63,488 bases of DNA from positions 64,001 through 127,488 of the IMG/VR virus record IMGVR_UViG_3300009826_000001. One strand, given 5' to 3'. Under the pieces are notes generated by a model. That model was given only the letters and a program-made list of their open reading frames with translations. It was not told where the DNA came from and did no database searches. Within the stretch, counting starts at the first letter, position 1. The number at the start of each line of letters is the position of its first letter. The translations under genes and the position numbers were made by a program. This stretch comes from a virus. Taxonomy: Duplodnaviria > Heunggongvirae > Uroviricota > Caudoviricetes. Of the stretch, positions 33,263 to 59,476 are shown in pieces.

Positions 33263-33309
33263 TTTCGAACTCCTTTCTGTCGATTCCGATTTCTCAACCT
33301 TCAACTACT

Positions 33310-33338
33310 ATTATACCGCACTTGACGCCTTATGTCAA
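33310..33338 (-). promoter_or_regulatory. SigA-type promoter, copy 1
   Basis: TTGACA-N17-TATAAT followed by the AGTAGTTGAAGGTTGAGAAA leader. Confidence 0.9.
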
Positions 33339-33344
33339 GTGTTT

Positions 33345-34955
33345 TCAATGTGCCAGATACTCGTTGTAAACCTTGTCGGCCTTGAGTTTGCCGGTCATAA
33401 CCTCCTCAACGGGTGCCAGCGTGTAGCCGTTGGCGGCGAGGAACTCCAGGTAGCACTTGGCGCCCACAGCACGCGACCACTCGTTGACCGACTTGCGCCA
33501 CTCGTCCTTGGGCGTGCGATTCTCCAACGCGCCCAGCACCAGCCCAAGCGTGATCACCAGTGCGCGGGGATCGCCGGTGTCGGGCAACGCGTCCAGCACC
33601 GCACCCAGACTGGCCGCCTGCGACTCGTCCTTGTCCTTGCGTACCCCGTACTCAAACCGGCTGCGCCTGACGCTGTCGACGCCGAGCAGCTCCGCGGTCA
33701 CGTCGCCGGCATGGTAGTCGGACAGCAGATGGCCGTCGTCGGTCAGGCATTTGGCGATGAAGATCGCCGCGCCCTGAGGCGGTGTCTTGCGCTCCAGCAT
33801 GGCCTTGACGAACTCGCGGCGGACCTGCTGGGCCGCATCGCCCAGTCGGTTGAGCGCGATCACCTTGCGCCGTTCGCGCTTCTCAGCCTTGGCCGCTTCG
33901 GCTGCCGCCATTGGCGTCTGCTGACCGGCCTCACCGGCCCTCGTCGGTCGGTCGGGACGCTTACGCAGCCGCAGTCCCGCACCCTCGACGTCGATGCAGT
34001 AGTAGTCGGCGACGAAAGCCTCCCGTTCCTCGACGCTGTCGGCATGACGCAGACCTTCCTCGGGCTCGGCATCGGGCCGACCTTCGGTTGTCCAGTCGAC
34101 CCATTCCTCGTCGAGGAACTCGCCGGTCTTCTTGTCGACCAGCACGGTTTCCTCGATCAGATGCACCGCCCACAGCTTCGGATTGGCGGTAGTGGCGTCC
34201 TTGGTCACGTCCCCGCCGTCGCTGGTTTCCAGCCGGTCTAGCGCGATGTACTTCTCGTCAAAGCTGCTGGGCCAGTGGTCGACAGTGGTGAACCCGACCT
34301 CGCGGTAGCTTTCTGCGGCCTTGTCCAGCTTCTCGTCGCGCTTGCGCCGCTCGCGCAGCTGCGCGGCGACGTGCTCGAAGCTGGAATGACCCACGCTGTT
34401 GCGCAGCCGGACCAGGGCCTGCTCGTCGCCATCGAACTCCGCGAGCACTGCGGCCTCGGCGAACGTGAGCTGGCTGTTCTCTTTGAGCTCGTCGAGCGCG
34501 AGCTGTGAGGCGCCGATCGCCTTGGCCGCTTTGATCGTCGCTGGCGGGACCGACAGCTTCTTGGCGATCTTGGCCTGCGACATTCCGACGCCCAGCAACT
34601 CCTGGATGCCCAGCACCCGCTCCACGTTGGTGAGCTCCTGGCGTTGATCGTTTTCGACGATCTGAGTGGTCACCCGCTCGACCGTGTTCTCGATCAGCTC
34701 CAGCGGCGCCTCGGTGATGTAGACCGGGATGCTGGCTAATCCGGCCTTGCGCGCCGCAAGAGTGCGGCGCTGGCCTAGTCGGACCCTGACCGTCCCGTCC
34801 GCATCACGCGTGGCGCCCACCGGCTCCAGCACGCCGTGCTCGGCGATGCTGGCCAGGAAGTCCTTGGTCAGATTCGCCTCGGTGCGGACGTTGGTGTCCA
34901 GCACCAGCGTGTTCGGGTCGAGAAATTCGAGGTGGCCGTTGTCCTGGTTACTCAT
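33345..34955 (-). CDS. parB: ParB/RepB/Spo0J family partition protein
   Basis: LDTNVR...SIAEHGVLEP...GQRRTLAA...ENDQRQELTNVER, HTH GMSQAKIAKKL; SD GAAAGGAAG. Confidence 0.85.
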   Translation of the reverse strand: MSNQDNGHLEFLDPNTLVLDTNVRTEANLTKDFLASIAEHGVLEPVGATRDADGTVRVRLGQRRTLAARKAGLASIPVYITEAPLELIENTVERVTTQIVENDQRQELTNVERVLGIQELLGVGMSQAKIAKKLSVPPATIKAAKAIGASQLALDELKENSQLTFAEAAVLAEFDGDEQALVRLRNSVGHSSFEHVAAQLRERRKRDEKLDKAAESYREVGFTTVDHWPSSFDEKYIALDRLETSDGGDVTKDATTANPKLWAVHLIEETVLVDKKTGEFLDEEWVDWTTEGRPDAEPEEGLRHADSVEEREAFVADYYCIDVEGAGLRLRKRPDRPTRAGEAGQQTPMAAAEAAKAEKRERRKVIALNRLGDAAQQVRREFVKAMLERKTPPQGAAIFIAKCLTDDGHLLSDYHAGDVTAELLGVDSVRRSRFEYGVRKDKDESQAASLGAVLDALPDTGDPRALVITLGLVLGALENRTPKDEWRKSVNEWSRAVGAKCYLEFLAANGYTLAPVEEVMTGKLKADKVYNEYLAH

Positions 34956-35122
34956 GGTTGTTGCTTCCTTTCGGTGTTGGTTTCCTGGTTGCCCGGATTT
35001 GGGTCGGGCTGGTCGAGCTTGTTGACGGCCTGGTGGAACCGCTTGTCCTCGAGCGGCCCGTGGTGCCACGCCCGCCGCCGCTTCCAGTGCTTGCCCTTCT
35101 GCGGTTTGCCATCGCCGCCCAC
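34952..35122 (-). CDS. Small basic hypothetical protein
   Basis: SD GAAAGGAG before GTG; ATGA overlap with parB. Confidence 0.4.
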   Translation of the reverse strand: MGGDGKPQKGKHWKRRRAWHHGPLEDKRFHQAVNKLDQPDPNPGNQETNTERKQQP

Positions 35123-35185
35123 CTGAAATCTCCTTTCATCGCGCCGGCCGCGACGCCGCGACGCCGGCAAATTTTTCATGCGTTG

Positions 35186-35587
35186 TCATCGCGCGATTCC
35201 CACGAGGGTGCCGCGCGGGGGCACCGGAGCGGGCACGTTCGCCTGCTCTGTTTGCGCCCCCGGCGCATCCGGGCACAGATAGCGCCCGGCGTCGGTGACC
35301 AGGCACTCCACATAGATGTGCGGCCACTGCGCCATGATCGTTGTCTCGTAGATCAACTGGTTGGCGGGCATGTGCTGCAGCTCGTCGCACAGCATCCGGC
35401 CCTTGTCCAGCGTGGCCCACGCCGGACTCGGGTCGATTCCCTGGCTGCGCAGCGCGCTGATATAGGCGCTGTCCTGCGCTGTGTCAGCCTTGGCCATGCC
35501 GGCGGCGATGACCAGGCCGGCCGCGGTCAGCATCGCGCCGGCGGCGATGCCGCCACCAATGACGAGCCGCTTTGTTGAGGTATCCAT
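35186..35587 (-). CDS. DUF732-like exported protein
   Basis: Signal peptide ending AKA-D; DSAYISALRSQGI...GRMLCDEL...YLCP. Confidence 0.75.
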   Translation of the reverse strand: MDTSTKRLVIGGGIAAGAMLTAAGLVIAAGMAKADTAQDSAYISALRSQGIDPSPAWATLDKGRMLCDELQHMPANQLIYETTIMAQWPHIYVECLVTDAGRYLCPDAPGAQTEQANVPAPVPPRGTLVGIAR

Positions 35588-35588
35588 G

Positions 35589-35825
35589 TCAGTTTCCTTT
35601 CAATCCGAATCCGTCGAGCCAACCGATGCCCAGCTCGTCGAGTGTGAGTTCCTGTAGGTCGATCTGATACCGCTTACCCTCCTTGTCGCGGACCACGAAG
35701 CACACCGCTGTGCTCTGTGGATCACGCATGATCGCCAGCGCTGCCTTCGCAGCGTCGGTCGGCGTCTTGCCGGGGACGCTGATCGCCCAGTAGACGTCGA
35801 ACTCCTGTTCTTCCGGGGATTCCAA
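35589..35825 (-). CDS. Small hypothetical protein
   Basis: SD AAGGAG; AKAALAIMRDPQSTAVCF. Confidence 0.55.
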   Translation of the reverse strand: MESPEEQEFDVYWAISVPGKTPTDAAKAALAIMRDPQSTAVCFVVRDKEGKRYQIDLQELTLDELGIGWLDGFGLKGN

Positions 35826-35899
35826 TTGACACTCCTTCTTCTCGTGGGGTTAACTTCGGCGCGGCGTTGCCAGGACGGCAACAACAGGCGGTTGATACT

Positions 35900-36013
35900 G
35901 AGGCGGCGGACCCGCCGTCTGCTGAGGAACAGCTTTGACCACAGCTGAGAGAGGCACAGGGTAAAGCCGACCGCAGAGGGAAACCACCGCGGACGGGGCG
36001 ACGGGTCCGCCTC
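35900..36013. ncRNA. Candidate structured RNA in an apparently non-coding gap
   Basis: Bulged closing stem GAGG/CGGACCCG/CCGTC pairs with 35991-36013; internal hairpins; no convincing ORF. Confidence 0.3.
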
Positions 36014-36051
36014 GTCATCAATATTCCAGAACCATCTGACATCTCCTTTCG

Positions 36052-36363
36052 TCACTCATTGATCCAGTCCAGAACGATCTTCAACGGGGCTTCGGAGTCG
36101 TCCTCGTCGTAGCCGTGGTCCTCGGGATAGGTTTCGTAGCAGCTCGCTGCCACCTGTTCCAAGGTCATTTCGGGATCGGTGAACAGGCGTTGACCAACCG
36201 CGTTGACCAGCAGGTTGAGCGCATCGCGCGTCCCGGCGTCCGGTAATTCGGCCGCCTCACAGATTGCGTCGGCCGCCCAGTTCAGGGCATCGCTGATCTC
36301 CTTCTGGGTATGGAGTCCAGCGAAGCGGCCACCGCTGCGACCCTGCTCGTTGTACCCGCTCAT
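36052..36363 (-). CDS. Hypothetical protein
   Basis: Acidic, phage-like codon bias. Confidence 0.55.
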   Translation of the reverse strand: MSGYNEQGRSGGRFAGLHTQKEISDALNWAADAICEAAELPDAGTRDALNLLVNAVGQRLFTDPEMTLEQVAASCYETYPEDHGYDEDDSEAPLKIVLDWINE

Positions 36364-36533
36364 GTCACTTCCCTGCCCTCGTTCCAGGCCGCGACCAGTG
36401 CTTGCGCCCAGCCACGGTCCATGCACTGTGCGACCACATCGCCGTCGACGGTGTAGACCGTGGCGAGTTCGGATTTGAGGTCCGTCGCATACCTCAAGAC
36501 ACTGCGAACCTCGGCCGGCTGCCAGCCACTCAC
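36360..36533 (-). CDS. Small hypothetical protein
   Basis: GTGA/ATGA overlap-coupled; translated by eye. Confidence 0.4.
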   Translation of the reverse strand: MSGWQPAEVRSVLRYATDLKSELATVYTVDGDVVAQCMDRGWAQALVAAWNEGREVT

Positions 36534-36865
36534 CAGATACCCCTAACTTCGTCGCGGTAGGTCGACATGGCGCGAAACTCCGCGTCATGCCAGTCCAGTC
36601 CAGCGGCATCACACAGGTGCCGCAGGTCGCACAGGAGATCACACATCGCCGTTTCGATGTCTTCTCCTGCTTCGGTCATGTTCGTGCGCTCAGCGAACGC
36701 TGACAGTGCGGTAGCTGCCCAGCTCGCGCGGGCGCTGTTGTCGGCTACCTCGTCGCCATCAGGTGACAGCTTGCGTGTCGCCAACTTGCCCGAGAAGCCA
36801 TAGAAGCGCAGATCGGCAAGGCTTCCCAGGTTCGGCAGTACCGCCTTGTATTCCGGTTCGGTCAC
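36530..36865 (-). CDS. Conserved hypothetical phage protein
   Basis: NSARASWAATAL...DLLCDLRHLC motif. Confidence 0.65.
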   Translation of the reverse strand: MTEPEYKAVLPNLGSLADLRFYGFSGKLATRKLSPDGDEVADNSARASWAATALSAFAERTNMTEAGEDIETAMCDLLCDLRHLCDAAGLDWHDAEFRAMSTYRDEVRGIW

Positions 36866-40163: not shown

Positions 40164-41849
40164 TCACAGGTCGAGCTGACGGCTCTGTGAGGCGACCGAC
40201 CGTGTCATGGTCAAGACCTGCTCAGTTCTGGTGGCCGGCTTGGCACGCCCGGCCCATTCCTCGCGCAGATCCCTGATCTCCTTGTCCTTGGTCTTGGCCA
40301 GCGGCACCACGTCGCGCGCCGCCATCAACAGATCCTTTGTGGTGATCTCGCGCTGGCCGTCCGCGAACGCGGTGTACATGCCGTCACGCACCAGTGCGGC
40401 GATCTCTGCGCCGGTGAACGTGTTGGTGGCCGAGGCGATCTCGTCCAGGTCCATGTCGGCCATCGCGTCGGCATCGCGCTTGCGCTCCCGCAACGCCGCC
40501 CGTGCCACGGCCACCCGCTCGGTCTCGTTGGGCAGATCGACCCAGAAGATTTCGTCGAAGCGGCCCTTACGCATGAACTCCGGCGGGAGCGCCGAGGCGT
40601 CGTTGGCCGTGGCCATGACGAACGCCTGTCCGTTGCGTTCCTGCATCCACGTCAGGACCGCACCCAGCATGTCCGCAGACACGCCGCCGTCAGCACTCCC
40701 TGACGTGGCGCCCTGCAGCGCCTTCTCGATCTCGTCCCACCAGACGATGCACCGGCCCAGCGCCTCGATCACGCTGAACGCCTTGCGCAAGTTCTGCTCG
40801 GAGTCGCCGACGAACTTGCTCTTGAGCGCACCCAGGTCGAGCCGGATGACCGGCACGCCCCACTCGATGCCGGTGCATTTGACGATGAGCGACTTCCCGC
40901 AGCCCGAGATGCCGATCAACAGGATGCCCAGCGGGGTGGGCAGGTTGTACTCGCGCGCCGCGTCGCTCCAGGCCATCTCGAGGCGTTTGAGGAACAGTTT
41001 GGTGTTCTCATGGCCGCCGACGCACTCGAAGCCACCGGGGCCCTCGATCCATTCCAGTGCCGGATTGCTGGCGATCACCTGCTTTTTCTCCTGGGCGACC
41101 ATCGCCGGGTCGATCACCTGCTTGAGCACCAACGAGGTCGCAAAACACGACGCGGCCTCGTTCTCGGTGAGCCCGATCGAGGCGTCGATCGCCGCTGTGC
41201 GCGCCTCGCCGCTGATGGATGCCCGAATCGCTGCCTTCATGTCCGCGGTGATCCTCGCTTCACCCGTTTCCGGGTCGACCGCTTCGCTGTTGAGCAGCGG
41301 CTCGCAGGCGTCATCGAGGATCTTGCCCATCTCGAATCGGTCGGGCATCGGCCAGTCGACGACCTGGGCGTCACTGGCGATCTCCGGCGGGATGTCGGGA
41401 TTGGCGGTGACGATGATGATGGTCTGGGCTCGGTCGCTGGGCAGCTTGGGCAGGTCGTTGATCAGGTTCCGCAAGGCACGCTGGTTGATCCAGAACGGCT
41501 CCTTGAGGTAGGGGATCAGGTCGAACATCACCCATACACAGCGGCTGCGGTTCTCGCGGATCACAGTGAACGCCTCGCGCACGTCTTCGACACCGCGATC
41601 ACCCATCAGCTGCCTGCCGGCCAAGTCGGTGAAACCGCGGGCGACGTCGTAGTAACGGGTTTCGTACTGCGGCCGGATGGATGCGGCCATCTCGAACAGA
41701 TACCGGCCGGCGCGAGCTTCTTGGGCGGTACGGACGATGATGAGGCCGGTGCGTGCTCGGACCTTTGCCTGGACCATCGTTGCGGCGACTTTCGAGGCGA
41801 ATTGGGGCGCCTCGGGCTTCGCACTCTTGCGGGGGGACTTAACGGACAT
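40164..41849 (-). CDS. AAA+ ATPase (Ycf46/Vps4-like; degenerate N-terminal plus active C-terminal AAA domain)
   Basis: Walker A GISGCGKS, Walker B VWWDEIEK, ATAN sensor, PPEFMRKGRFDE arginine finger; C-terminus SRQLDL. Confidence 0.9.
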   Translation of the reverse strand: MSVKSPRKSAKPEAPQFASKVAATMVQAKVRARTGLIIVRTAQEARAGRYLFEMAASIRPQYETRYYDVARGFTDLAGRQLMGDRGVEDVREAFTVIRENRSRCVWVMFDLIPYLKEPFWINQRALRNLINDLPKLPSDRAQTIIIVTANPDIPPEIASDAQVVDWPMPDRFEMGKILDDACEPLLNSEAVDPETGEARITADMKAAIRASISGEARTAAIDASIGLTENEAASCFATSLVLKQVIDPAMVAQEKKQVIASNPALEWIEGPGGFECVGGHENTKLFLKRLEMAWSDAAREYNLPTPLGILLIGISGCGKSLIVKCTGIEWGVPVIRLDLGALKSKFVGDSEQNLRKAFSVIEALGRCIVWWDEIEKALQGATSGSADGGVSADMLGAVLTWMQERNGQAFVMATANDASALPPEFMRKGRFDEIFWVDLPNETERVAVARAALRERKRDADAMADMDLDEIASATNTFTGAEIAALVRDGMYTAFADGQREITTKDLLMAARDVVPLAKTKDKEIRDLREEWAGRAKPATRTEQVLTMTRSVASQSRQLDL

Positions 41850-41932
41850 ACTCTCTCCTATTTGTTGGATGGATTACCCGAATTCGGGTTTTCCGGTGGG
41901 GATTCAAAGGTATATTTCAACCTTCACTACTA

Positions 41933-41961
41933 ATTATACGCCATTTTGACGCTTATGTCAA
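41933..41961 (-). promoter_or_regulatory. SigA-type promoter, copy 2
   Basis: TTGACA-N17-TATAAT plus leader hairpin 41906-41925. Confidence 0.9.
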
Positions 41962-47249: not shown

Positions 47250-47314
47250 GACTATCTCCAATTCATTTATCGTGGGGATTTCTGAATGAAGGTATTTCTC
47301 AACCTTCAACTACT

Positions 47315-47343
47315 ATTATACCCTATTCTGACCCTTATGTCAA
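47315..47343 (-). promoter_or_regulatory. SigA-type promoter, copy 3
   Basis: TTGACA-N17-TATAAT; leader hairpin 47287-47308; 20-bp inverted repeat 47317-47336/47352-47371. Confidence 0.9.
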
Positions 47344-47380
47344 GTCTTTTAAAGGGTCAGAATAGGGTATATTTGCCGGC

Positions 47381-47692: not shown

Positions 47693-48099
47693 CGCGGGTC
47701 CTCCGCGAGAACCGACGACGCCGGGTCCTCCGCGAGAATCTTTTCCAGCAGCTCGGCGGTGGCCGGCATCGCCCGGTATTGCAGCCCGGCGATGGCGACG
47801 GTTACCCGGTCATCATCGTCCGGGGTGGTCACAGGTGGGGTGGTCAACGGTGGGTTCTCACCACGTTCGGCGTGCCACCGTGAGCACCAAGCCTGGTGCT
47901 CATTGGGCGCGCCACACTCAGTGCACTTGATCTTGGACACGGCATCGGTGTTGTCCGCGCCCCCGCGCACGATATGGAGATCCTTGGCGGCCAGCTGACG
48001 GATGATCGCGTCGGTGGCGGCTTCGAGATTGCTGCCCTGTGGCAAACCCTGGAGAGCCTTGAGGATGATGTCGCGGCTGTAGACGTTCTTGCGTTGCAT
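47689..48099 (-). CDS. Hypothetical protein
   Basis: SD AAGGAG; CTECG..H..WC. Confidence 0.55.
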   Translation of the reverse strand: MQRKNVYSRDIILKALQGLPQGSNLEAATDAIIRQLAAKDLHIVRGGADNTDAVSKIKCTECGAPNEHQAWCSRWHAERGENPPLTTPPVTTPDDDDRVTVAIAGLQYRAMPATAELLEKILAEDPASSVLAEDPR

Positions 48100-51017: not shown

Positions 51018-51105
51018 CGCAGTGCCTTTCGTGGGGAAAACGGTAGGGGTGGTCACCGACACGCCCTGGATTTGTCGAAGTTGACATTTATCAACTTCAA
51101 CTACT

Positions 51106-51134
51106 ATTATACGCCATTTCAACGGTTAAGTCAA
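51106..51134 (-). promoter_or_regulatory. SigA-type promoter, copy 4
   Basis: TTGACT-N17-TATAAT; 11-bp leader hairpin 51074-51101. Confidence 0.85.
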
Positions 51135-51216
51135 GTGTTTGTAATGCTAGCGTAAGGGGTGGTCAACGCGCCGCTGAACGCGAAAAATTTTTCGGCAACG
51201 CATGAAGCTTGTGCAC

Positions 51217-51251
51217 AAAAAAACCCCGCGACCGTAGTCGCGGGGCTTCTT
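51217..51251 (-). terminator. Intrinsic terminator
   Basis: CCCCGCGAC/GTCGCGGGG stem plus T7 on the minus strand. Confidence 0.85.
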
Positions 51252-51261
51252 ACTGTTCGAG

Positions 51262-51937: not shown

Positions 51938-52147
51938 TCAGTTCTCCTGTTCGGTGGGGTGGTTGATCACTACCGACGCGATCGCACGCGCCGACTCGAG
52001 CTCGACCTCGCGCACGATCTCCATCGCCCGCGTGATGCCGGCCGGGTCAAAGCGCAGACCTTCGGCGCAGATCCGGCGGGACGCTCTCAGCGAGAGGCCG
52101 CGTTCGCTGGGTGTGAGTTCGGTCGGGGGCATCTTGATTTCGCTCAT
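51938..52147 (-). CDS. Small protein, first gene after promoter copy 5
   Basis: SD AGGAG. Confidence 0.5.
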   Translation of the reverse strand: MSEIKMPPTELTPSERGLSLRASRRICAEGLRFDPAGITRAMEIVREVELESARAIASVVINHPTEQEN

Positions 52148-52210
52148 CACTGTCTCCTGTATCTGTGGGGTGGGAATTTGAATGAAGGTATTTCTCAACC
52201 TTCAACTACT

Positions 52211-52239
52211 ATTATACCGCACTTGACGCCTTAAGTCCA
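52211..52239 (-). promoter_or_regulatory. SigA-type promoter, copy 5
   Basis: TGGACT-N17-TATAAT; leader hairpin 52183-52204. Confidence 0.8.
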
Positions 52240-52298
52240 GCAAAGGCCCAGGTCAGGCTCTCCTGTTTCCCCGGATTCGGGCGGAACGAGGGCATAAG

Positions 52299-52331
52299 AA
52301 AACCCCCGCACCTGGCTGGTGCGGGGGTTTT
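52299..52331. terminator. Bidirectional intrinsic terminator
   Basis: AAAACCCCCGCACC-N5-GGTGCGGGGGTTTT. Confidence 0.85.
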
Positions 52332-52344
52332 CCTTATTCAGTTG

Positions 52345-53238
52345 TTAGGCAACGCCCTCGCCGTTGGACTCGACGGTGACCGGGGCCGGAGCCTTGGCCG
52401 CGACCTCGGCCTTGGCCGCCTCGACGTCGGCCTTGGTCGGGACGACCTTGGCCTTGCCGGCGTTGGCCTTGCGCGCCTCCGCCCGCTTCTTGGCGGCTTC
52501 CTTGGCCTCCTGCTTGCGGTTCATCAGCCCGACGACGGCCAGGAAGCCGTCCTCGTAGATCCGCTTGGCCTTGAGCAGCTGGTCGAGCGTCATGCCGCTG
52601 GCGCCCTCCAGGTTCTCCATGACCGGACCGCTGGCCGCCTGCAACGCCTCGAGCCGCTTGTCGTTCAGCTCGGCCTTGGTCGGCTCCTTGGCTTCCGGCT
52701 TCTTGGCAGCGCCGGTCTTCTTGGAGTTCCGGGTTTCGGCCGACTGCTCGACGTCCTCCGGGCTGGAGTTCTCGTCGACGCCCATCGCCTTCTGGTTCTG
52801 GGAGATGTCGTTGACGATGCCCTTGCTCGCGCCCGAGCCCTCGATCGCCTGGGCGTGGGTTGCGCCCTTGGACAACAGGACCGCAGCGGTGATCTTCTTC
52901 ACCGCGAGCGCGGCGTCCGGCGAGCCCTCCAGCCGGTTGGCGAGGTAGGCACCCAGGTTCTTGAACAGCTGCTTGCCCTCGTCGTCCTTGAAGGTCTTCC
53001 AGACGCGGGTCTTCTCGCCCTGGAACTCGACCTCGGCGTCGGCCATCGCGACGGCCGTGGCCATCTGGCCGAGCGCCTTCTGGACGGACGTACCCGCAGA
53101 GACGACCTGCTTGTCGATCTTGTCCCGGCCCTTGACCGTGAGCTTGATGCTGACGATCTTGACCGCGGCGTTCTCGGCGGTGGTGCCCGCGCCTTCGACG
53201 TTGTTCTCGACGACCGGGGCGATTGTGGTGCTTGTCAT
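52345..53238 (-). CDS. Ala/Lys-rich probable DNA-binding protein (HTH), monocistronic; paralog of 59519-60277
   Basis: LLSKGATHAQAIEGSGASKGIVND HTH-like; strong codon bias; own promoter and terminator. Confidence 0.7.
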   Translation of the reverse strand: MTSTTIAPVVENNVEGAGTTAENAAVKIVSIKLTVKGRDKIDKQVVSAGTSVQKALGQMATAVAMADAEVEFQGEKTRVWKTFKDDEGKQLFKNLGAYLANRLEGSPDAALAVKKITAAVLLSKGATHAQAIEGSGASKGIVNDISQNQKAMGVDENSSPEDVEQSAETRNSKKTGAAKKPEAKEPTKAELNDKRLEALQAASGPVMENLEGASGMTLDQLLKAKRIYEDGFLAVVGLMNRKQEAKEAAKKRAEARKANAGKAKVVPTKADVEAAKAEVAAKAPAPVTVESNGEGVA

Positions 53239-53371
53239 GTCGTTCTTCTTTCGTTGGACCCGTTTCCGGGTGTTTGGTTCCCGTCTCCCGAATTTCGGGA
53301 AATCGGCCTGGCGTCGCGTGCTTTCCGGCCAGGTCTGAAAGCCGTTATGTCTATTTCGACCTTCAACTACT

Positions 53372-54026: not shown

Positions 54027-54355
54027 CGACGCCGTCCTCGTGTGATCGGGGTGACGCGAGCGCGGTGACCGTTGGTCCAGACCGGCTCGCCGCGGACGAC
54101 GAAGATGTGCTCGCCGGCGCGCACGATGTCGCACTCACAGCCGGGGTCGCCCATCGTGCACTGGTGATTGACGACGTAGATCGCGGCTGGCTCGCTGGCG
54201 TCGGGGATGGTCTTGAACCGCGCCATGCAGTTCTCGAAACCGACCTTGTCCTCGAAGGCGAAGCCACCCAGGTCGTAGCAGGATTCATTGACGTCGAGAA
54301 TGATCTCTCGCCACACGGGGTGGTCAACGACCGGCTTTGTTTTTGTTGCTGGCAT
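54023..54355 (-). CDS. Hypothetical protein, first gene after promoter copy 7
   Basis: SD AAGGAG; HQCTMGDPGCEC. Confidence 0.6.
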   Translation of the reverse strand: MPATKTKPVVDHPVWREIILDVNESCYDLGGFAFEDKVGFENCMARFKTIPDASEPAAIYVVNHQCTMGDPGCECDIVRAGEHIFVVRGEPVWTNGHRARVTPITRGRRR

Positions 54356-54430
54356 TGCTTTCTCCTTCCCGAAATTCGGGTGATTTGTTGTGGGATTTGA
54401 AGGTCTTCGATTTCTCAACCTTCAACTACT

Positions 54431-54459: not shown

Positions 54460-54474
54460 GTCTTTTAAAGTCCT

Positions 54475-54557
54475 GGGGTGGTCAAACGTGGGGTGGTCAA
54501 CGACGGGTACACGCAAAAAATTTTGGCGGCAGCGCATGAATCGTGCCCGGATCTGGG
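54475..54557. repeat. Upstream cassette: 2x GGGGTGGTCAA, A6T4 tract, CAGCGCATGAA, CCCGGATCTGGG
   Basis: Near-identical to 56824-56921; partial copy at 51156-51206. Confidence 0.85.
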
Positions 54558-54570
54558 TGAACCAGGGCAA

Positions 54571-54606
54571 CAAAAAACCCCGCGGCTTGCGCTGCGGGGT
54601 TTTTTG
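54571..54606. terminator. Bidirectional intrinsic terminator
   Basis: AAAAAACCCCGC...GCGGGGTTTTTT. Confidence 0.85.
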
Positions 54607-54618
54607 TTTCGTCGCCGG

Positions 54619-54777
54619 CTACTCGTAGCCGGCCATGTGGCGTTCATAGCTGGCCACTTCGGCGGCGGCCTTTTCCTCCTTCATCTCGGCGATCTCGTGC
54701 TCCAACTTCTCTACCCGCTCACGCAACCGGCAGAACTCGATCGTGAGCTGCGCCAGGAGCTCCTTGTTGGTGCTCAT
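54619..54777 (-). CDS. Small coiled-coil protein
   Basis: MSTNKELLAQLTIEFCRLRERVEKLEHEI; SD AAGGCG. Confidence 0.5.
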   Translation of the reverse strand: MSTNKELLAQLTIEFCRLRERVEKLEHEIAEMKEEKAAAEVASYERHMAGYE

Positions 54778-55715: not shown

Positions 55716-55770
55716 CGTTCTCGATTCCTTTCGTTGTTTCCCGAATTTCGGGGTTACCCGGATCTGGGTA

Positions 55771-56073
55771 TCAGTCGGTGATCTTGACGTCGGCGGAGTT
55801 GACGTCGGGCGCGGCGTCGTACCAGCCCCTGAAACGCTCCCGTTCCAGGCGCTCATTGGCCGCGATGACGTCATGCGCGTAATCGCCGAGCCGGTTGAGC
55901 GCGGCCAGCATGTCGCCGGCCTCGATCGCGGACACGATCCAGGCCGCAGCCAGGTAGCGTCCCTGCGCGTGGCCCAGCAGTGCGAGCCGCTCGGCCACCG
56001 TGTCCACGGTGTTGCCACCATCGCCGGCCAGGATGGACACGACGGCCTTGCGCTTGACGGTGTTGATGTTCAT
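55771..56073 (-). CDS. Hypothetical protein
   Basis: SD GAAAGGAAAG. Confidence 0.55.
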   Translation of the reverse strand: MNINTVKRKAVVSILAGDGGNTVDTVAERLALLGHAQGRYLAAAWIVSAIEAGDMLAALNRLGDYAHDVIAANERLERERFRGWYDAAPDVNSADVKITD

Positions 56074-56307
56074 CTACTTTCCTTTCTCCGTGTATTCCTT
56101 GACGTAGTTGGCGTGCTTGAGCTCGGCCTCGAGCTTCTCGACCCGGTAGCGGTCCTTGCGCAGCACCCGCTCGTAGCCGGGCTGCGCCTGGTGGCGTGGG
56201 TTGGATTCCATGTCGGCGAGTACCTCACGCGCCCGCTCGAGCTCACGCTCGATGCGCTCGATGCGGGCCTCGTGCAGCACCGCAGTGATGTCGACAAGAT
56301 GTTTCAC
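56074..56307 (-). CDS. Coiled-coil protein
   Basis: SD AGGAG. Confidence 0.55.
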   Translation of the reverse strand: MKHLVDITAVLHEARIERIERELERAREVLADMESNPRHQAQPGYERVLRKDRYRVEKLEAELKHANYVKEYTEKGK

Positions 56308-56335
56308 GGCATTCTCCTGTTCTTGTGGGGTGGTT

Positions 56336-56671
56336 TTAGATGACGACGGACTCAGGGCTGTATTTCTCGAGGGCCTCGTCGCTGTGGTCGGCGCACAGCC
56401 ACTCGTGGCGGACGTTCTTCTCGTTCCTGACTGGACCGCTGGTCATCTCGACGTCCCGGCAGCCGCAGTCGCGGACGCTGACCACGAGCTGCAAGTCCTG
56501 CGGAACGCCGTGACCGATCTCGGATTCCTTGAGCCAGAACACGCGTCGGGTGGCGAACTGCTCCAGCTGCTCGATGCGGAAACCCGAAATTCGGGAAGCC
56601 AGCTCGATCGCGGCCGCGTCGTTGTCGTGCTCGGGCTGGCCGGTTCCGGCCGGCGTGGAATTGGCGTGCAT
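56336..56671 (-). CDS. Hypothetical protein, first gene after promoter copy 8
   Basis: SD AAAGGAG. Confidence 0.55.
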   Translation of the reverse strand: MHANSTPAGTGQPEHDNDAAAIELASRISGFRIEQLEQFATRRVFWLKESEIGHGVPQDLQLVVSVRDCGCRDVEMTSGPVRNEKNVRHEWLCADHSDEALEKYSPESVVI

Positions 56672-56731
56672 CAATAACTCCTTTGTTTTGTGGGATTTGA
56701 AGGGACTTCGATTTCTCAACCTTCAACTACC

Positions 56732-56760
56732 ATTCTACTCGCAAAAGGCGCTTAAGTCAA
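56732..56760 (-). promoter_or_regulatory. SigA-type promoter, copy 8
   Basis: TTGACT-N17-TAGAAT; leader hairpin 56697-56726. Confidence 0.85.
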
Positions 56761-56823
56761 GTGTTTTAAAGTCTGGCGACGAGCTGGGTTGGAGCGCTGT
56801 AATTTCGCTGTTCAGCGCCTGCT

Positions 56824-56921
56824 GGGGTGGTCAACGCGGGGTGGTCAACGCGGGGTGGTCAACGTGCGGTACACGCAAAAAAATTTTGCGCGGCAGCGCA
56901 TGAATCGTGCCCGGATCTGGG
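56824..56921. repeat. Upstream cassette: 3 tandem 14-bp GGGGTGGTCAACG(C) repeats, A7T4 tract, CAGCGCATGAA, CCCGGATCTGGG
   Basis: Boxes at 56824, 56838, 56852; matches 54475-54557. Confidence 0.85.
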
Positions 56922-56930
56922 TGACGCCAA

Positions 56931-56966
56931 CAAAAAACCCCGCGACCGAAGCCGCGGGGTTTTTTG
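56931..56966. terminator. Bidirectional intrinsic terminator
   Basis: AAAAAACCCCGCG...CGCGGGGTTTTTT. Confidence 0.85.
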
Positions 56967-56974
56967 GTTGACGA

Positions 56975-57238
56975 TCAGCGCACGTTGCGAGCGCGCTGCT
57001 GCTTGTACTCCTTGCTCTCGGTGACCAGCTTGTGGCCGGTGTAGCGGTCCACATCGTCGGGCATCCCCGACTCGTACCAGGCGCTGAGGTTCGCGCCCTC
57101 GCGCTCCCGGCGCGCCTTGCGCGCGGCGTATGCGGCCGCCTCACGCGCCTGGTCGGCCTCACGGCGCGCGATCGTCGCGGCCGTGATCTGCGCTTGCGTG
57201 GCCCCGATCTTGGCCAGCATGTCCTTCGGTGTTGTCAT
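56975..57238 (-). CDS. Ala/Arg-rich hypothetical protein
   Basis: SD AAAGGAG. Confidence 0.55.
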   Translation of the reverse strand: MTTPKDMLAKIGATQAQITAATIARREADQAREAAAYAARKARREREGANLSAWYESGMPDDVDRYTGHKLVTESKEYKQQRARNVR

Positions 57239-57251
57239 CCTGTTCTCCTTT

Positions 57252-57689
57252 TCAGCGGATCTCGTTGGCGTGCATCATCGCCGCCTCGGCCTCGTTGGCG
57301 TCGGCGTCCTCGTCGTACTCGGGGTTGCTGAAGTGCAGCGTCGTCTCCTCGATCGCCGGCGCCCAGGTCTGACTGAAGCGCCACGCTTCGGCTTCCTCCT
57401 GGCTGGTCGTGACCTTGCAGATCGACTGCGGGTTGTACTCGTCCTCACTGCCCGACGTCAGCACCCACGCCCGATAGGTCGCGCCGACAATGGTCGCGGT
57501 CGGGACATTCTCGATCGCCCACAGCGTGTCGTGGTGATCGCCGTAGTCGTCGCTGTAGCTGTAGTCCACCTTCCAGCGCGGCTCATGCTCGGTGACGGAC
57601 TCGACGGCGCCCACCACATCGCCCAGCTGGATGAGATCGCCGGGGCTCAGGTTGGACGGGTGGGTGTAGCTGTTGATTATTCGGATCAC
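57252..57689 (-). CDS. Hypothetical protein (KOW-like LSPGDLI)
   Basis: SD GAAAGGAA before GTG 57689. Confidence 0.6.
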   Translation of the reverse strand: MIRIINSYTHPSNLSPGDLIQLGDVVGAVESVTEHEPRWKVDYSYSDDYGDHHDTLWAIENVPTATIVGATYRAWVLTSGSEDEYNPQSICKVTTSQEEAEAWRFSQTWAPAIEETTLHFSNPEYDEDADANEAEAAMMHANEIR

Positions 57690-57735
57690 TGCAGTTCCTT
57701 TCAATGGATGGTTGTCGCCGTTCCCGAATTTCGGG

Positions 57736-57855
57736 GCCGGAGGGTTGGTCGGCAGCCGGAGGGTCCGGTGCTGCCGGAGGGTTCGATCGCCAAGGAGGGT
57801 CACTCTCACAAGGAGGGTCATACCGCCAAGGAGGGTCACACTGCCGGAGGGTCAC
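57736..57855. repeat. Seven GGAGGGT cores at 16-19 nt period with variable spacers
   Basis: Cores at 57739, 57758, 57776, 57794, 57812, 57830, 57846. Confidence 0.85.
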
Positions 57856-58196
57856 ATATCCGCCAGTCGGCGCAGCGCCTCGCCATGCTGCTCGGTCACG
57901 CGCTTGAGCGCCGCTTTGAACACCTCCTCTCGCGTGTACCAGTTGAACGGGTCGGCCGCGATCTGCTCGGCCCGCTCGAACAGCTGCGGCACGGTCACAT
58001 TGAGCTTGCGTGCGATGTCGGCCAGCATGATCCCGCTGGCCTCGCGCACGCCGCTCTCGACGTTGCCCAGATGCGAGTTGGAGATCACCGACCGCAGATC
58101 ATCGCGAGACAGCCCGCGCTCCATGCGGATCGCCTGGATCGCACGCCCCATTGCCTGACGGCGACGCTGCTCGTCGGCCACCCATTGCACGGTCAT
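57852..58196 (-). CDS. XRE-family HTH regulator
   Basis: AIQAIRMERGLSRDDL..VISNSHLGNVESGVREAS..ML.DIA..LNV. Confidence 0.85.
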   Translation of the reverse strand: MTVQWVADEQRRRQAMGRAIQAIRMERGLSRDDLRSVISNSHLGNVESGVREASGIMLADIARKLNVTVPQLFERAEQIAADPFNWYTREEVFKAALKRVTEQHGEALRRLADM

Positions 58197-58615
58197 GCGG
58201 TCACCCGGTAACGGGCGGCGTGGTGAACTGTGGTCATCGGGCCGGCCAGCACGCGCTCGCCGCGCTCGTTGCGCGCCCACTTGGTGCGCTCGTCGGTCCG
58301 CACGCACGGCTGGTGCGCCAGCACATTGCATCGCGGGCACGGCCGCGCCGCGGCTGCGGCGAAGTCCGGGTTAGTCGCCATCAGCTGCACGCGCGCCTCG
58401 TTGGCGCAGCACGGCCGACCACAGCTCTCGCCCAGCGGGCGCAGCACCTGGACCTGCTTGCCACGCACGCCGCACGTGCGCGGGTTGTCCTCGACCACGA
58501 CCAGCGTGTGGCTGCAATAGATGACCGCGCCCGGCGCGGCCTCCGGGTCGATGATCGGATTGCCGATCTGCATGCACCGCTCGCTGGCGATGACCCAATC
58601 ACTTTTCTTTGCCAT
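58193..58615 (-). CDS. Cys-rich protein with C-terminal Zn finger
   Basis: RPCPRCNVLAHQPC; SD AGGAG. Confidence 0.55.
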   Translation of the reverse strand: MAKKSDWVIASERCMQIGNPIIDPEAAPGAVIYCSHTLVVVEDNPRTCGVRGKQVQVLRPLGESCGRPCCANEARVQLMATNPDFAAAAARPCPRCNVLAHQPCVRTDERTKWARNERGERVLAGPMTTVHHAARYRVTA

Positions 58616-58638
58616 GTTCATTCTCCTAACTGGTTGTT

Positions 58639-58920
58639 TTATTTGCTGACGTTGAACTGCTTGCGCAGCCAGATGATCGACGAGCCGCTCACTGCGCCCG
58701 TGCGCTCGGCCCACGCGATGCGCGCCGCTTGACTGTCACCGTGCGCCTCGATCTGCTCGCGCACCTGCTTGCGTAGCCAGCCCGCGACTCCGCTGGTGAC
58801 AACGCCTTCGTACTCCGCGTCGGCGATCGACGACTCGAGGATGTCGTCGCGGTCGTTGTGCGCCGCCATGTGGATGATCCGCAACAACACCTCGTCGCGG
58901 CTGATCTGTGGTCTTGCCAT
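58639..58920 (-). CDS. Hypothetical protein
   Basis: SD AAAGGAA. Confidence 0.55.
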   Translation of the reverse strand: MARPQISRDEVLLRIIHMAAHNDRDDILESSIADAEYEGVVTSGVAGWLRKQVREQIEAHGDSQAARIAWAERTGAVSGSSIIWLRKQFNVSK

Positions 58921-58983
58921 TTCGTTCCTTTACGGGTTGTGCCCCGCGCTCCCCGAATTTCGGGAAGCGCGGGGCTGAATTGG

Positions 58984-59094
58984 TCAGTCGTTGATGATGA
59001 GCACTGGTGGCAACGGCGCCATCCAGACGATGCCGACGCCGGCGATGCAACCGCAGATCCACGGCCAGCGCGTCGTCCAGTCGATGCTTGGCAT
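58984..59094 (-). CDS. 36-aa TM peptide, first gene after promoter copy 9
   Basis: MPSIDWTTRWPWICGCIAGVGIVWMAP...; SD GGAAGGAG. Confidence 0.5.
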   Translation of the reverse strand: MPSIDWTTRWPWICGCIAGVGIVWMAPLPPVLIIND

Positions 59095-59137
59095 GTCGTT
59101 CTCCTTCCTTGTTCGTTTTCTCAACCTTTCAACTACC

Positions 59138-59166
59138 ATTATATAGCAAACCTATACTTATGTCAA
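59138..59166 (-). promoter_or_regulatory. SigA-type promoter, copy 9
   Basis: TTGACA-N17-TATAAT followed by GGTAGTTGAAAGGTTGAGAAA. Confidence 0.9.
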
Positions 59167-59476
59167 GTGATGTTAAGTATGCTGCAGCGTATCTCTGCAC
59201 GCCGTTTCCCGAATTTCGGGAACCGACTGCCGAAAAACATTTCGTTTCGTAAAAACATTTGTGCGTTTGTCGAACAAATCGACAACGCATGAATTTCACC
59301 CAGAACCGGGTGGGACGCATGACACGATCCCGATCCCGCGGCGCGGCGCGCGCGCGCGGTGGCGGCGCGGCGTGGGGACCGGGAGCCTTGGCCTGCGCGA
59401 AAAAGCCCGGTCCCGTTTCCCCCCGAATTTCGGGGCGGGGGCCGGGCTTCCCGAAATTCGGGAAATCCGAGCGCTG

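What the first reader, a model, noticed from the sequence alone, without database searches (positions are those of the whole stretch)
33290..59169. Nine consensus SigA promoters, most followed by a covarying 5' RNA hairpin: a repeated promoter-stem-loop expression cassette
Seen in sequence (minus strand). TTGACA/TTGACT/TGGACT-N17-TATAAT/TAGAAT occurs at 33310, 41933, 47315, 51106, 52211, 53372, 54431, 56732 and 59138. Every spacer is exactly 17 nt, and each is followed by a conserved (A/G)GTAGTTGAAGGTTGAGAAA-like leader. In seven copies the leader folds on itself: UGAAGGU-UGAGAAAU-ACCUUCA (copies 3, 5); GUUGAAGUUGA-UAAAUG-UCAACUUCGAC (copy 4, different sequence, 11 bp); UGAAGGUC...GGCUUUCA (copy 6, wobble substitutions); similar in 2, 7, 8. 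Compensatory changes argue for selected RNA structure. Established: T4-type phages carry repeated promoter/stem-loop cassettes (PeSL) implicated in modular gene shuffling, and lambda boxB hairpins recruit antiterminators. Inference: these are early host-takeover transcription units whose 5' hairpin stabilises the mRNA or recruits a phage RNA-binding or antitermination protein, and which may double as recombination boundaries.
Basis: partly seen in the sequence, partly recalled or inferred. Interest (0 to 1): 0.8.

Follow-up and report, generated by a model that had tools for sequence, protein, structure and literature searches.

The report
Repeated phage promoter-hairpin expression cassettes
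An uncultured Corndog-like actinobacteriophage starts nine blocks of non-structural genes with one inherited module, a near-perfect host-type promoter whose transcript probably begins with a small RNA hairpin; the hairpin's function is untested, and this extends promoters already predicted in Cluster O mycobacteriophages rather than being a new kind of system.

Summary
Nine TKGACW-N17-TAKAAT sites lie on the minus strand, with none expected by chance and no others in the 127-kb genome. All carry the leader RGTAGTTGAAGGTTGAG. Copies 3-8 fold into clear hairpins, copy 2 folds weakly, and copies 1 and 9 do not.

The cassette is homologous to the four predicted SigA-like promoters in the leftward arm of Cluster O mycobacteriophages (PMC4351075, which mentions no leader hairpin). 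P2 and P1 sit at the same gene junctions as in phage Dylan. About 35 distinct copies occur in Cluster O phages and uncultured high-GC phage contigs, and none in 185,579 bacterial species genomes.

The hairpin covaries (GAAGG/CCUUC, GGAGG/CCUCC, GUGGG/CCCGC). 86% of cells pair, against 32-49% in slid controls, and 21% of cells are G-U. That points to selection on the sense RNA.

Canonical terminators precede P4, P5, P7 and P8, so these are insulated transcription units.

The likeliest role is a strong host-polymerase promoter plus a hairpin at or near the RNA 5' end that protects it. This is inferred, since no start site or RNA data exist. Antitermination is disfavoured, and evidence for recombination at cassettes is weak.

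This scan has noted similar promoter-hairpin cassettes in other actinophages.

The parts
33310..33338 (-). P1 promoter TTGACA-17-TATAAT. It begins 7 nt after the ParB-like gene's stop and drives the Zn-ribbon gene (32981-33262) and Ku. It is the positional ortholog of the Dylan promoter between ParB and gene 88/Ku.
41933..41961 (-). P2 promoter TTGACA-17-TATAAT upstream of the AAA-ATPase gene (40164-41849). It is the positional ortholog of the Dylan and G004 promoters upstream of their AAA-ATPase genes.
41906..41925 (-). P2 leader hairpin GAAGGU/ACCUUU (weak, -5.5 kcal/mol)
47315..47343 (-). P3 promoter TTGACA-17-TATAAT
47287..47308 (-). P3 leader hairpin UGAAGGU-UGAGAAAU-ACCUUCA
47317..47371 (-). 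Perfect 20-bp inverted repeat. It encloses the P3 -35 in its loop, and its 3' arm forms the spacer and the start of the -10. This PeSL-like geometry is unique to P3.
51106..51134 (-). P4 promoter TTGACT-17-TATAAT
51074..51101 (-). P4 leader hairpin, 12 bp, in a different register (GUUGAAGUUGAU/GUCAACUUCGAC), -15.7 kcal/mol
51217..51245 (-). Canonical intrinsic terminator (CCCCGCGAC-tacg-GTCGCGGGG-T7) ending the P5 unit, 83 nt upstream of the P4 -35
52211..52239 (-). P5 promoter TGGACT-17-TATAAT. Its spacer is identical to P1 (17/17) and its hairpin matches P3, so it looks chimeric.
52183..52204 (-). P5 leader hairpin, identical to that of P3
52299..52327 (-). Intrinsic terminator (CCCCCGCACC-agcca-GGTGCGGGGG-TTTT) upstream of P5
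53372..53400 (-). P6 promoter TTGACA-17-TAGAAT, with a 133-nt leader
53335..53366 (-). P6 leader hairpin UUGAAGGUCG/CGGCUUUCAG, with G-U wobbles and a 12-nt loop
54431..54459 (-). P7 promoter TTGACA-17-TAGAAT
54397..54425 (-). P7 leader hairpin UUGAAGGUU/GACCUUCAA
54572..54599 (-). Intrinsic terminator (CCCCGC-agcgcaagcc-GCGGGG-T6) upstream of P7, flanked by an A-run and a T-run
56732..56760 (-). P8 promoter TTGACT-17-TAGAAT
56697..56726 (-). P8 leader hairpin UUGAAGG/CCUUCAA
56932..56959 (-). Intrinsic terminator (CCCCGCG-gcttcggt-CGCGGGG-T6) upstream of P8
59138..59166 (-). P9 promoter TTGACA-17-TATAAT. It has the conserved leader but no hairpin, and a 43-nt leader to a 36-aa membrane-like ORF.
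56824..56861 (-). Three tandem TTGACCACCCC repeats (14-nt period) between the terminator and P8. Two more lie upstream of P7 (54475-54499) and one upstream of P4 (51156-51165). Function unknown.
54368..54380 (.). CCCGAAATTCGGG dyad in the P7 leader between the hairpin and the SD. The same dyad sits in the leaders of P2 (41877-41888) and P6 (53287-53299). It occupies the same leader slot as the 17-bp dyad of Cluster O phages.

Best explanation
The nine sites are promoters read by the host's primary-sigma (SigA/HrdB-type) RNA polymerase. They divide about 26 kb of leftward, non-structural genes of a Corndog-like actinobacteriophage into short, insulated transcription units.

The promoter and the first ~20 transcribed bases form one inherited module. 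It is shared with Cluster O mycobacteriophages (their four predicted leftward-arm promoters) and with many uncultured high-GC phages.

Transcription probably starts at the T-G step 7-8 nt after the -10. The RNA would then begin directly with the 5' arm (GAAGGU or GGAGGU), which pairs with a downstream CCUUC/CCUCC.

I infer that this 5'-terminal stem-loop hinders 5'-end-dependent decay (pyrophosphohydrolase, RNase E, RNase J). Where a terminator hairpin closes the 3' end, the mRNA would be capped by structure at both ends. The purine-rich, conserved initial transcribed sequence may also help RNA polymerase escape from a consensus promoter.

An A/C-rich stretch (AAAUCCCCAC) and the SD follow the hairpin.

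Shown here: the promoters, their homology and positional orthology, RNA-level covariation of the hairpin, and the upstream terminators.

Inferred: the start site, expression timing, and stabilisation as the hairpin's job.
For: - Promoters: 9 found against 0 in shuffles, all on one strand and all inside 26 kb.
- Homology: the Dylan copies read TTGACATAAG..GTAGAAT-AGTAGTTG(G)AGGTYGA.
- Positional orthology: P2 lies upstream of the AAA-ATPase gene in this phage, in Dylan and in record G004. P1 lies between ParB and the Zn-ribbon/Ku genes in this phage and in Dylan. The proteins are only 45-48% identical and the DNA is not alignable.
- The three P2 orthologs have three different stems: GAAGGU/ACCUUU, GAGGUC/GGCCUC and GUGGG/CCCGC.
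- Family size: about 35 distinct copies in high-GC phage contigs.
- Not seen outside phages: none of the 67 listed matches from the 185,579-species scan comes from an actinobacterium.
- Covariance-model alignment A4: 86% of cells paired against 32-49% when the partner is slid. 6 of 9 pairs change on both sides. One pair is A-U in 12 sequences and G-C in 12. 63 of 301 cells are G-U.
- Permutation of 3' arms among copies: own-arm score 16.5 against 13.8 +/- 0.4, 0 of 5000 permutations as high.
- Folding of window copies 3-8: z from -2.1 to -6.7.
- The base 8 nt after the -10 is a purine in nearly every copy, usually preceded by T.
- Canonical terminators lie upstream of P4, P5, P7 and P8.
- Stabilisation of mRNA by 5'-terminal stem-loops is established in E. 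coli and B. subtilis (primary papers listed in review PMC3997798).
Against: - No transcription start, timing or half-life data exist for this phage or for Cluster O.
- Copies 1 and 9 lack the hairpin, and copy 2's is weak.
- The 5' arm and the first loop bases (UYGAR) are far more conserved than pure structure needs. This hints at sequence-specific recognition or a DNA-level role.
- Most covariation rests on one A-U/G-C swap plus a few rarer changes.
- Related copies are not independent observations, and alignment A4 was fitted to the model.
- If transcription started several bases upstream, the hairpin would not be strictly terminal.
Confidence: 0.55

Rival explanations
1. The hairpin is an RNA operator. 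A conserved phage or host protein would bind the stem and the conserved 5' loop bases (UYGAR) to control translation, stability or elongation of the whole set of transcripts. Models include lambda N-boxB and Aca2-type HTH proteins that bind both DNA and RNA.
For: - AGTAGTTGRAGGTYGAG is nearly invariant across phages whose proteins are only 45-48% identical. Structure alone does not need that much conservation.
- An XRE-type HTH gene (57852-58340) and a WhiB-domain gene lie inside these units.
- The scan has noted an Aca2-like reading for another mycobacteriophage cassette.
Against: - No candidate binding protein was identified or tested.
- Loop length varies from 4 to 15 nt, and the distal loop is not conserved.
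- For antitermination specifically, terminators are followed at once by a fresh promoter. That makes read-through unnecessary.
- No boxA-like element was searched for.
- By eye, the promoter inverted repeat and the hairpin share no sequence, unlike Aca2 sites.
Confidence: 0.17
2. The conserved leader works mainly at the DNA level, as an operator just downstream of +1 or as an initial transcribed sequence tuned for promoter escape. On this view the RNA hairpin is incidental.
For: - The 5' half is much more conserved than the 3' arm.
- The initial transcribed sequence is purine-rich. From my own knowledge of phage T5 N25 promoter studies, such sequences favour escape from consensus promoters.
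- Copies 1 and 9 keep the leader but have no hairpin.
Against: - The 3' arm tracks changes in the 5' arm across lineages, at variable distance.
- 21% of cells are G-U. These pair only in sense RNA and would be A-C mismatches on the other strand.
- A DNA operator does not need a downstream complement.
Confidence: 0.12
3. The cassettes are chiefly recombination linkers, PeSL-like mobile regulatory cassettes that mediate gene shuffling, and their expression role is secondary.
For: - P5 combines the P1 spacer (17/17 identical) with the P3 hairpin.
- Among five Cluster O genomes, one insertion (1532 bp in Catdawg, 638 bp in JangDynasty) ends 19 bp upstream of the -35 of the ATPase cassette.
- One 220-260-bp insertion lies inside a cassette leader.
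- The composite terminator + promoter layout resembles PeSL logic.
Against: - Most Cluster O indels (about 8 of 10) are not at cassettes. Several are bounded by the 17-bp dyads instead (PMC4351075).
- Positional orthology of P1 and P2 over deep divergence argues for stability, not mobility.
- Public termite-gut runs gave no strain variants of this phage.
Confidence: 0.08
4. The 5' arm (GGAGG/GAAGG) is a STAB-SD-type ribosome-binding decoy. It would hold a 30S subunit at the 5' end and so stabilise the mRNA.
For: - In many relatives the arm is a perfect SD core, GGAGGU, placed at the predicted 5' end.
- The STAB-SD mechanism is known in B. subtilis (cited in PMC3997798).
Against: - The arm is kept paired with CCUCC, which would block 30S binding.
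- The variants GUGGG and GGAAGU keep the pairing but lose the SD match.
Confidence: 0.04

Closest known systems
Predicted SigA-like promoters in the leftward arm of Cluster O mycobacteriophages (Corndog, Dylan, Firecracker, Catdawg; Cresawn et al. 2015, PMC4351075)
   Same: - Homologous sequence: TTGACATAAG...GTAKAAT-AGTAGTTG(R)AGGTYGA.
- 17-nt spacer.
- Leftward non-structural arm.
- The same gene junctions: upstream of the AAA-ATPase gene, and between ParB-like and Zn-ribbon/Ku.
- A phage-specific dyad repeat in the leader.
   Different: - Nine copies here against four.
- The arm is GAAGG/CCUUC rather than GGAGG/CCUCC.
- An A-tract lies upstream of the -35 instead of ACCCC.
- The dyad is different (CCCGAAWTTCGGG against TGTTCGGNNNCCGAACA).
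- The genome is 127 kb against about 70 kb.
- The paper reports only promoter hexamers. It mentions neither the conserved leader nor its hairpin.
PeSL (promoter-early stem-loop) cassettes of T4-type phages (Arbiol et al. 2010, PMC2839356; Comeau et al. 2014, PMC4122927)
   Same: - Repeated strong sigma70-type promoters with an AT-rich upstream tract.
- Combined with terminators.
- They flank small genes of unknown function in non-core regions.
- There are hints of recombination between copies.
   Different: - The PeSL stem-loop lies between or over the -35/-10 boxes and is itself the terminator of upstream transcription.
- Here the conserved hairpin is in the transcribed leader, and separate terminators lie upstream.
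- There is no sequence homology, and the phage lineage and host phylum differ.
- No mini-circles or frequent cassette-bounded swaps were shown here.
5'-terminal stabiliser stem-loops (E. coli ompA and papA leaders, B. subtilis aprE leader; the phage T7 gene 10 leader is from my own knowledge)
   Same: A hairpin at or within a few nt of the predicted 5' end, followed by an unstructured leader and an SD. The job would be to block 5'-end-dependent decay.
   Different: - The function is untested here.
- The host is an actinobacterium with both RNase E and RNase J.
- The element is fused to a conserved promoter and reiterated as a module.
Lambda-type nut sites (boxA + boxB hairpin bound by N)
   Same: A small hairpin early in phage early transcripts, with partly conserved loop bases.
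   Different: - Loops are 4-15 nt, not 5-nt GNRA-like.
- No boxA or N-like protein was identified.
- Terminators are followed by new promoters rather than being read through.
Cluster O 17-bp dyad repeat, and the stoperator comparison discussed in PMC4351075
   Same: A short phage-specific palindrome occurs many times in the early arm, including in the leaders between hairpin and SD. Here it is 15 copies of CCCGAAWTTCGGG.
   Different: The sequence and length differ, and the function is unknown in both. It is a separate element that only partly overlaps the cassette (3 of 9 leaders).

Membership tests
Cluster O-type SigA-like promoter cassette (leftward-arm promoters of PMC4351075) | -35 TTGACA-like and -10 TAnAAT hexamers with a 17-nt spacer | tested here: met
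Cluster O-type SigA-like promoter cassette (leftward-arm promoters of PMC4351075) | Sequence homology beyond the hexamers (TAAG after the -35, G before the -10, AGTAGTTG + RAGGTYGA leader) | tested here: met
   (nhmmer E 1e-8 to 1e-19)
Cluster O-type SigA-like promoter cassette (leftward-arm promoters of PMC4351075) | Same genomic positions (upstream of the AAA-ATPase gene; between ParB-like and Zn-ribbon/Ku) | tested here: met
Cluster O-type SigA-like promoter cassette (leftward-arm promoters of PMC4351075) | Promoter activity and start site shown experimentally | not testable with these tools
   The promoters are only predicted in the paper too. No RNA run holds this phage.
T4-type PeSL | Strong sigma70-type promoter with an AT-rich upstream tract | tested here: met
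   (cTTTAAAAcAC before the -35)
T4-type PeSL | Stem-loop located between or over the -35/-10 boxes and acting as terminator of upstream transcription | tested here: not met
   Only P3 has such a stem (20 bp). The other eight do not exceed chance. The conserved hairpin is downstream of the -10.
T4-type PeSL | Recombination between copies causes gene gain, loss or replacement between close relatives | tested here: inconclusive
   P5 is a chimera. About 2 of 10 Cluster O indels touch a cassette. No variants of this phage were found.
5'-terminal stabiliser stem-loop | Hairpin begins within about 0-3 nt of the RNA 5' end | tested here: inconclusive
   The stem starts 6-8 nt after the -10 in nearly all copies, but the start site is only predicted.
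5'-terminal stabiliser stem-loop | Structure maintained by selection (covariation) | tested here: met
5'-terminal stabiliser stem-loop | Removing the stem shortens mRNA half-life | not testable with these tools
   This needs reporter and rifampicin-chase assays.
Lambda nut/boxB antitermination site | 5-bp stem with a GNRA-like pentaloop, plus boxA | tested here: not met
   Loops are 4-15 nt and variable. boxA was not searched for.
Lambda nut/boxB antitermination site | Downstream terminators that must be read through | tested here: not met
   Terminators are followed by a new copy of the promoter.
Any Rfam family | Match to a curated covariance model | tested here: not met
   no match at any cassette. 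Only sub-threshold Thr_leader hits at the upstream terminators.

The most novel reading that the evidence does not exclude
The invariant 5' arm plus UYGAR loop start would be the recognition site of a conserved but unidentified phage or host RNA-binding protein. The cassettes would then form a post-transcriptional regulon that switches the whole early gene set of Corndog-like actinophages on or off together. To my knowledge, no such RNA-level early-gene switch has been described in actinobacteriophages.
Probability: 0.15. Interest if true: 0.7.

Novelty: new variant of a known kind. Interest (0 to 1): 0.42.

Why it matters
- It turns the bare promoter predictions for Cluster O mycobacteriophages into a defined, conserved promoter-plus-leader module with positional orthologs and a covarying 5' hairpin.
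- The module is present across a wide, mostly uncultured, group of high-GC phages.
- It gives a clear, cheap experiment in a tractable system (Corndog or Dylan on M. smegmatis). That experiment would show how phages of actinobacteria build strong, insulated transcription units and whether 5' hairpins protect mRNA in hosts that have both RNase E and RNase J.
- If validated, the compact module could serve as an expression part for mycobacterial genetics.
- It does not change the general picture of phage gene expression.

Tried and rejected
- Close relatives in INPHARED by megablast or blastn of 7-10 kb: none.
- Exact 19-mer scan of IMG/VR: only chance hits in low-GC contigs.
- Scan of 185,579 bacterial species genomes: only Streptococcus, Clostridia and similar chance matches, no actinobacterial or prophage copy.
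- RNA evidence: no RNA holder listed. The only holders are termite-gut DNA runs.
- Laying contigs of four runs: the contigs are identical to the window, with no differing letters on the long pieces. They simply break at the repeated cassettes (47293-47322, 52003-52204). There are no strain variants, so no test of cassette-bounded swaps in this phage.
- My idea that every promoter is wrapped in an inverted repeat joining the upstream DNA to the spacer: true only for P3. The others are at chance level.
- Whole-leader MFE z-scores with the 3' part shuffled: uninformative in GC-rich relatives. I replaced this with an arm-matching permutation.
- Full-text search for the cassette sequence and for Cluster O transcriptomes: nothing relevant.
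- Rfam: nothing.
- Similarity to a Pseudomonas Bruynoghevirus promoter and leader: judged convergence or chance. That promoter drives tRNA genes, and its 3' arm is part of a local CTTAAG repeat.

Full report
OBSERVATION

A pattern search found exactly nine TKGACW-N17-TAKAAT sites in the window. The window is the second half (64001-127488) of a 127,488-bp IMG/VR virus record. Its 123-bp terminal overlap suggests a circular assembly, and GC is about 64%. A relaxed scan of the whole genome found no further copies, so the nine are confined to about 26 kb.

Conservation extends beyond the hexamers. There is an A-rich tract (cTTTAAAAcAC) before the -35, TAAG after it, usually G before the -10, and then RGTAGTTGAAGGTTGAGAAAT.

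Folding the first 36 transcribed bases gave clear hairpins for copies 3-8 (-8.6 to -15.7 kcal/mol, z -2.1 to -6.7). Copy 2 has the same arms but folds weakly (-5.5, z -0.5). Copy 1 has only a marginal alternative fold, and copy 9 has none. Within the window alone, however, the 'compensatory change' argument rests on copy 4 and copy 6 only.

WHAT THE PHAGE IS

No DNA-level relative exists among 50,697 phage records. The region does encode an AAA-ATPase, a ParB-like protein, a small Zn-ribbon-like protein and a Ku homolog. By tblastn the ATPase is 45% identical to that of Cluster O mycobacteriophages: Dylan, Firecracker, Catdawg and others. These four genes follow the same order in Dylan. Other genes in the units are mostly of unknown function. 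The exceptions are a WhiB-domain protein, an XRE-type HTH, a PNKP-like phosphatase, a voltage-sensor-like membrane protein and a DUF732 protein. Public runs that hold the phage are termite-gut metagenomes.

HOMOLOGY OF THE CASSETTE

Dylan carries the same module four times in its leftward arm: TTGACATAAGCCCCTGTCAAGAGTAGAAT-AGTAGTTG(G)AGGTYGA... followed by a complement, GGCCTCC. Cresawn et al. 2015 (PMC4351075) predicted SigA-like promoters in this arm, and these four copies correspond to them. That paper reports three other stem-loops as terminators, and a 17-bp dyad repeat, but it mentions no conserved leader or leader hairpin.

Two window copies are positional orthologs:
- P2 lies directly upstream of the ATPase gene here, in Dylan and in IMG/VR record G004.
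- P1 lies between the ParB-like gene and the Zn-ribbon/Ku genes here and in Dylan.

The surrounding proteins have diverged to 45-48% identity and the DNA can no longer be aligned. The promoter and the first ~20 transcribed bases have nevertheless stayed nearly the same, which argues for purifying selection.

Degenerate pattern scans of IMG/VR and of JGI metagenomes, followed by an nhmmer profile search, gave about 35 distinct copies in high-GC phage contigs. Several contigs hold 2-5 copies. The same pattern in one genome from each of 185,579 bacterial and archaeal species hit only low-GC Firmicutes and a few unrelated MAGs. By this pattern, the module was seen only in phages.

IS THE HAIRPIN SELECTED?

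Across the family the 5' arm is GAAGG, GGAGG, GAGGUC, GUGGG, GGAAGU or GAAG. In each case the 3' arm matches it: CCUUC, CCUCC, GGCCUC/GACCUC, CCCGC, ACUUUC or CUUC. The three orthologs of P2 alone show three different stems.

Permuting the downstream segments among copies lowers the best arm-to-arm helix score from 16.5 to 13.8 +/- 0.4, and 0 of 5000 permutations reached the observed value.

A covariance model built on 16 clean copies recovered 38 matches. Their alignment (A4) shows:
- 86% of cells paired, against 32-49% when the partner is slid by 1-3 columns.
- 6 of 9 pairs with changes on both sides.
- One pair split A-U 12 / G-C 12.

63 of 301 cells are G-U. These pair only in the sense transcript, which argues against a DNA palindrome or a structure on the antisense strand.

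There are caveats. The alignment is fitted to the model, copies within one phage are not independent, and one swap carries most of the signal. No Rfam family matches.

ARCHITECTURE AROUND THE PROMOTERS

Canonical intrinsic terminators (8-10 bp GC-rich stem followed by T4-T7) lie upstream of P4, P5, P7 and P8. Between terminator and promoter, P4, P7, P8 and partly P9 share a longer module. It contains ATTCATGCGYTGCCG, an AAAATTTTT palindrome and 1-3 tandem TTGACCACCCC repeats.

After the hairpin comes an A/C-rich motif (AAAUCCCCAC; CCCCACGA in relatives). In P2, P6 and P7 a CCCGAAWTTCGGG dyad follows, and then the SD. That dyad occurs 15 times in the genome (0 in shuffles), with 14 copies in the leftward arm.

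Relatives have their own dyad in the same leader slot:
- TGTTCGGAAACCGAACA in Cluster O
- GTGTACGGAACCCGTACAC in L032
- GTCCGGTTTCCGGAC in L127, L214 and L120
- GGTGTTGCATTTCGCAACACC in L226

P3 is embedded in a perfect 20-bp inverted repeat whose loop holds the -35. The other copies show nothing above chance there.

HOW IT MOST LIKELY WORKS

The hexamers and spacing fit the primary-sigma consensus, so host RNA polymerase should read these promoters without phage help. This follows from established promoter knowledge and was not tested here.

The base 8 nt after the -10 is a purine in nearly every copy and is usually preceded by T. By the pyrimidine(-1)/purine(+1) rule this is the likely start (my own knowledge). 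The RNA would then begin with the first paired base of the stem.

5'-terminal stem-loops protect mRNAs from 5'-end-dependent decay in E. coli and B. subtilis (Emory 1992, Bouvet & Belasco 1992, Arnold 1998 and Hambraeus 2002, as listed in PMC3997798). RNase E governs the decay of most M. smegmatis mRNAs (PMC10641625, abstract).

With a terminator hairpin at the 3' end, the units fed by P5, P6, P8 and P9 would give mRNAs closed by structure at both ends. My best reading is therefore a strong promoter, a 5' protective hairpin, an unstructured A/C-rich spacer and an SD, reiterated as insulated units.

The extra conservation of the 5' arm and the first loop bases may reflect a second constraint. 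That could be promoter escape from a consensus promoter, or a binding protein. This keeps the RNA-operator rival alive.

Processive antitermination is unlikely, because terminators here are followed by a fresh promoter rather than being read through.

RECOMBINATION IDEA

P5 has the P1 spacer (17/17 identical, while other pairs reach at most 14/17) and the P3 hairpin. That suggests exchange between copies.

I compared the right arms of five Cluster O genomes and found roughly ten indel events:
- One insertion (1532 bp in Catdawg, 638 bp in JangDynasty) ends 19 bp upstream of the -35 of the ATPase cassette.
- One 220-260-bp insertion sits inside a cassette leader and is bounded by ~40-bp repeats that include the 17-bp dyad.
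- The rest lie elsewhere, often at dyads, as the Cluster O paper already noted.

This is suggestive at best. Contigs from four termite-gut runs were identical to the window and gave no variants.

COMPARISON AND VERDICT

The cassette belongs to the Cluster O promoter family by sequence and by position. It extends that family with a covarying leader hairpin that the paper did not describe, and with a broad uncultured distribution.

It resembles T4 PeSLs in logic (strong promoter plus terminator, repeated around genes of unknown function). It fails the defining PeSL geometry, and it is not homologous.

This scan has already noted similar promoter-hairpin-dyad cassettes in several other actinophage genomes, two of them compared to Cluster O. 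I did not check those notes.

My overall assessment is a real, tidy regulatory module and a new variant of a known kind. Interest is moderate, and it offers a directly testable hypothesis in a cultivable model.

Noticed in passing
window 38777-60424 (15 sites; e.g. 41877, 53287, 54368, 59208, 59422, 59450) and 1706: The 12-13-bp dyad CCCGAA(A/T)TTCGGG occurs 15 times in the genome (0 in shuffles), 14 of them in the leftward early arm. Three sit in cassette leaders. It occupies the same leader slot as the Cluster O 17-bp dyad, and each related phage lineage has its own dyad sequence there. That suggests a regulator and its site evolving together.
   Followed up: partly
window 56824-56861, 54475-54499, 51156-51165, 51046-51055, 47822-47846, 54317-54326 (minus strand): TTGACCACCCC occurs 10 times exactly on the minus strand within 47.8-56.9 kb, where I estimate about 0.5 by chance for the whole genome. 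It forms tandem arrays of 3, 2 and 1 just upstream of P8, P7 and P4. This could be an activator or repressor site array, or decayed -35 duplicates.
   Followed up: partly
window 51135-51260, 54460-54610, 56761-56970, 59167-59300 (minus strand): The intergenic regions upstream of P4, P7, P8 and P9 share a longer module: terminator, CACCCAGATCCGGG, ATTCATGCGYTGCCG, and an AAAATTTTT palindrome. The repeated unit is therefore about 200-250 bp in these copies, not just promoter plus leader.
   Followed up: partly
L115:601-680 (Pseudomonas phage Epa2, MT108724; also Pa223, PaP3 and TL-type Bruynogheviruses): An annotated sigma70 promoter upstream of a tRNA cluster is 78-79% identical over 62 nt to cassette copy 3 (best record E 2e-5). 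The match includes a UAAGGU-UGAGAAAUU-ACCUUA hairpin with the same loop start. It is probably convergence plus chance, but it is unexplained.
   Followed up: partly
L032:3529-3593 (minus strand) and the Cluster O copies in L015: In Cluster O-type copies the -35 is half of a 7-bp inverted repeat, CTTGACA-N8-TGTCAAG. One L032 copy has TGGACA paired with TGTCCA, a compensated variant. This is a candidate dimeric operator overlapping the -35. Only P1 and P2 keep it in the window.
   Followed up: partly
window 52295-52361, 54541-54628, 56929-57068: Sub-threshold Rfam Thr_leader hits (29-38 bits against a gathering score of 55) fall on or beside the terminators upstream of P5, P7 and P8. They most likely reflect terminator-like hairpins rather than attenuators.
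   Followed up: no
L012/L013 (IMG/VR, 35% GC) and L297 (Thermoflexus MAG): Unrelated low-GC or bacterial sequences carry TTGACA-17-TATAAT followed by AGTAGTTG. In L012 GAAGGTGAG serves as the SD. In L297 AGTAGTTG pairs with CAACTACT as a 5' hairpin. I treated both as chance.
   Followed up: no
window 47293-47322 and 52003-52204: Logan contigs of four termite-gut runs end exactly at cassette copies 3 and 5. These copies share more than 31 identical bases, so this is an assembly effect of the repeat and not biological variation.
   Followed up: yes
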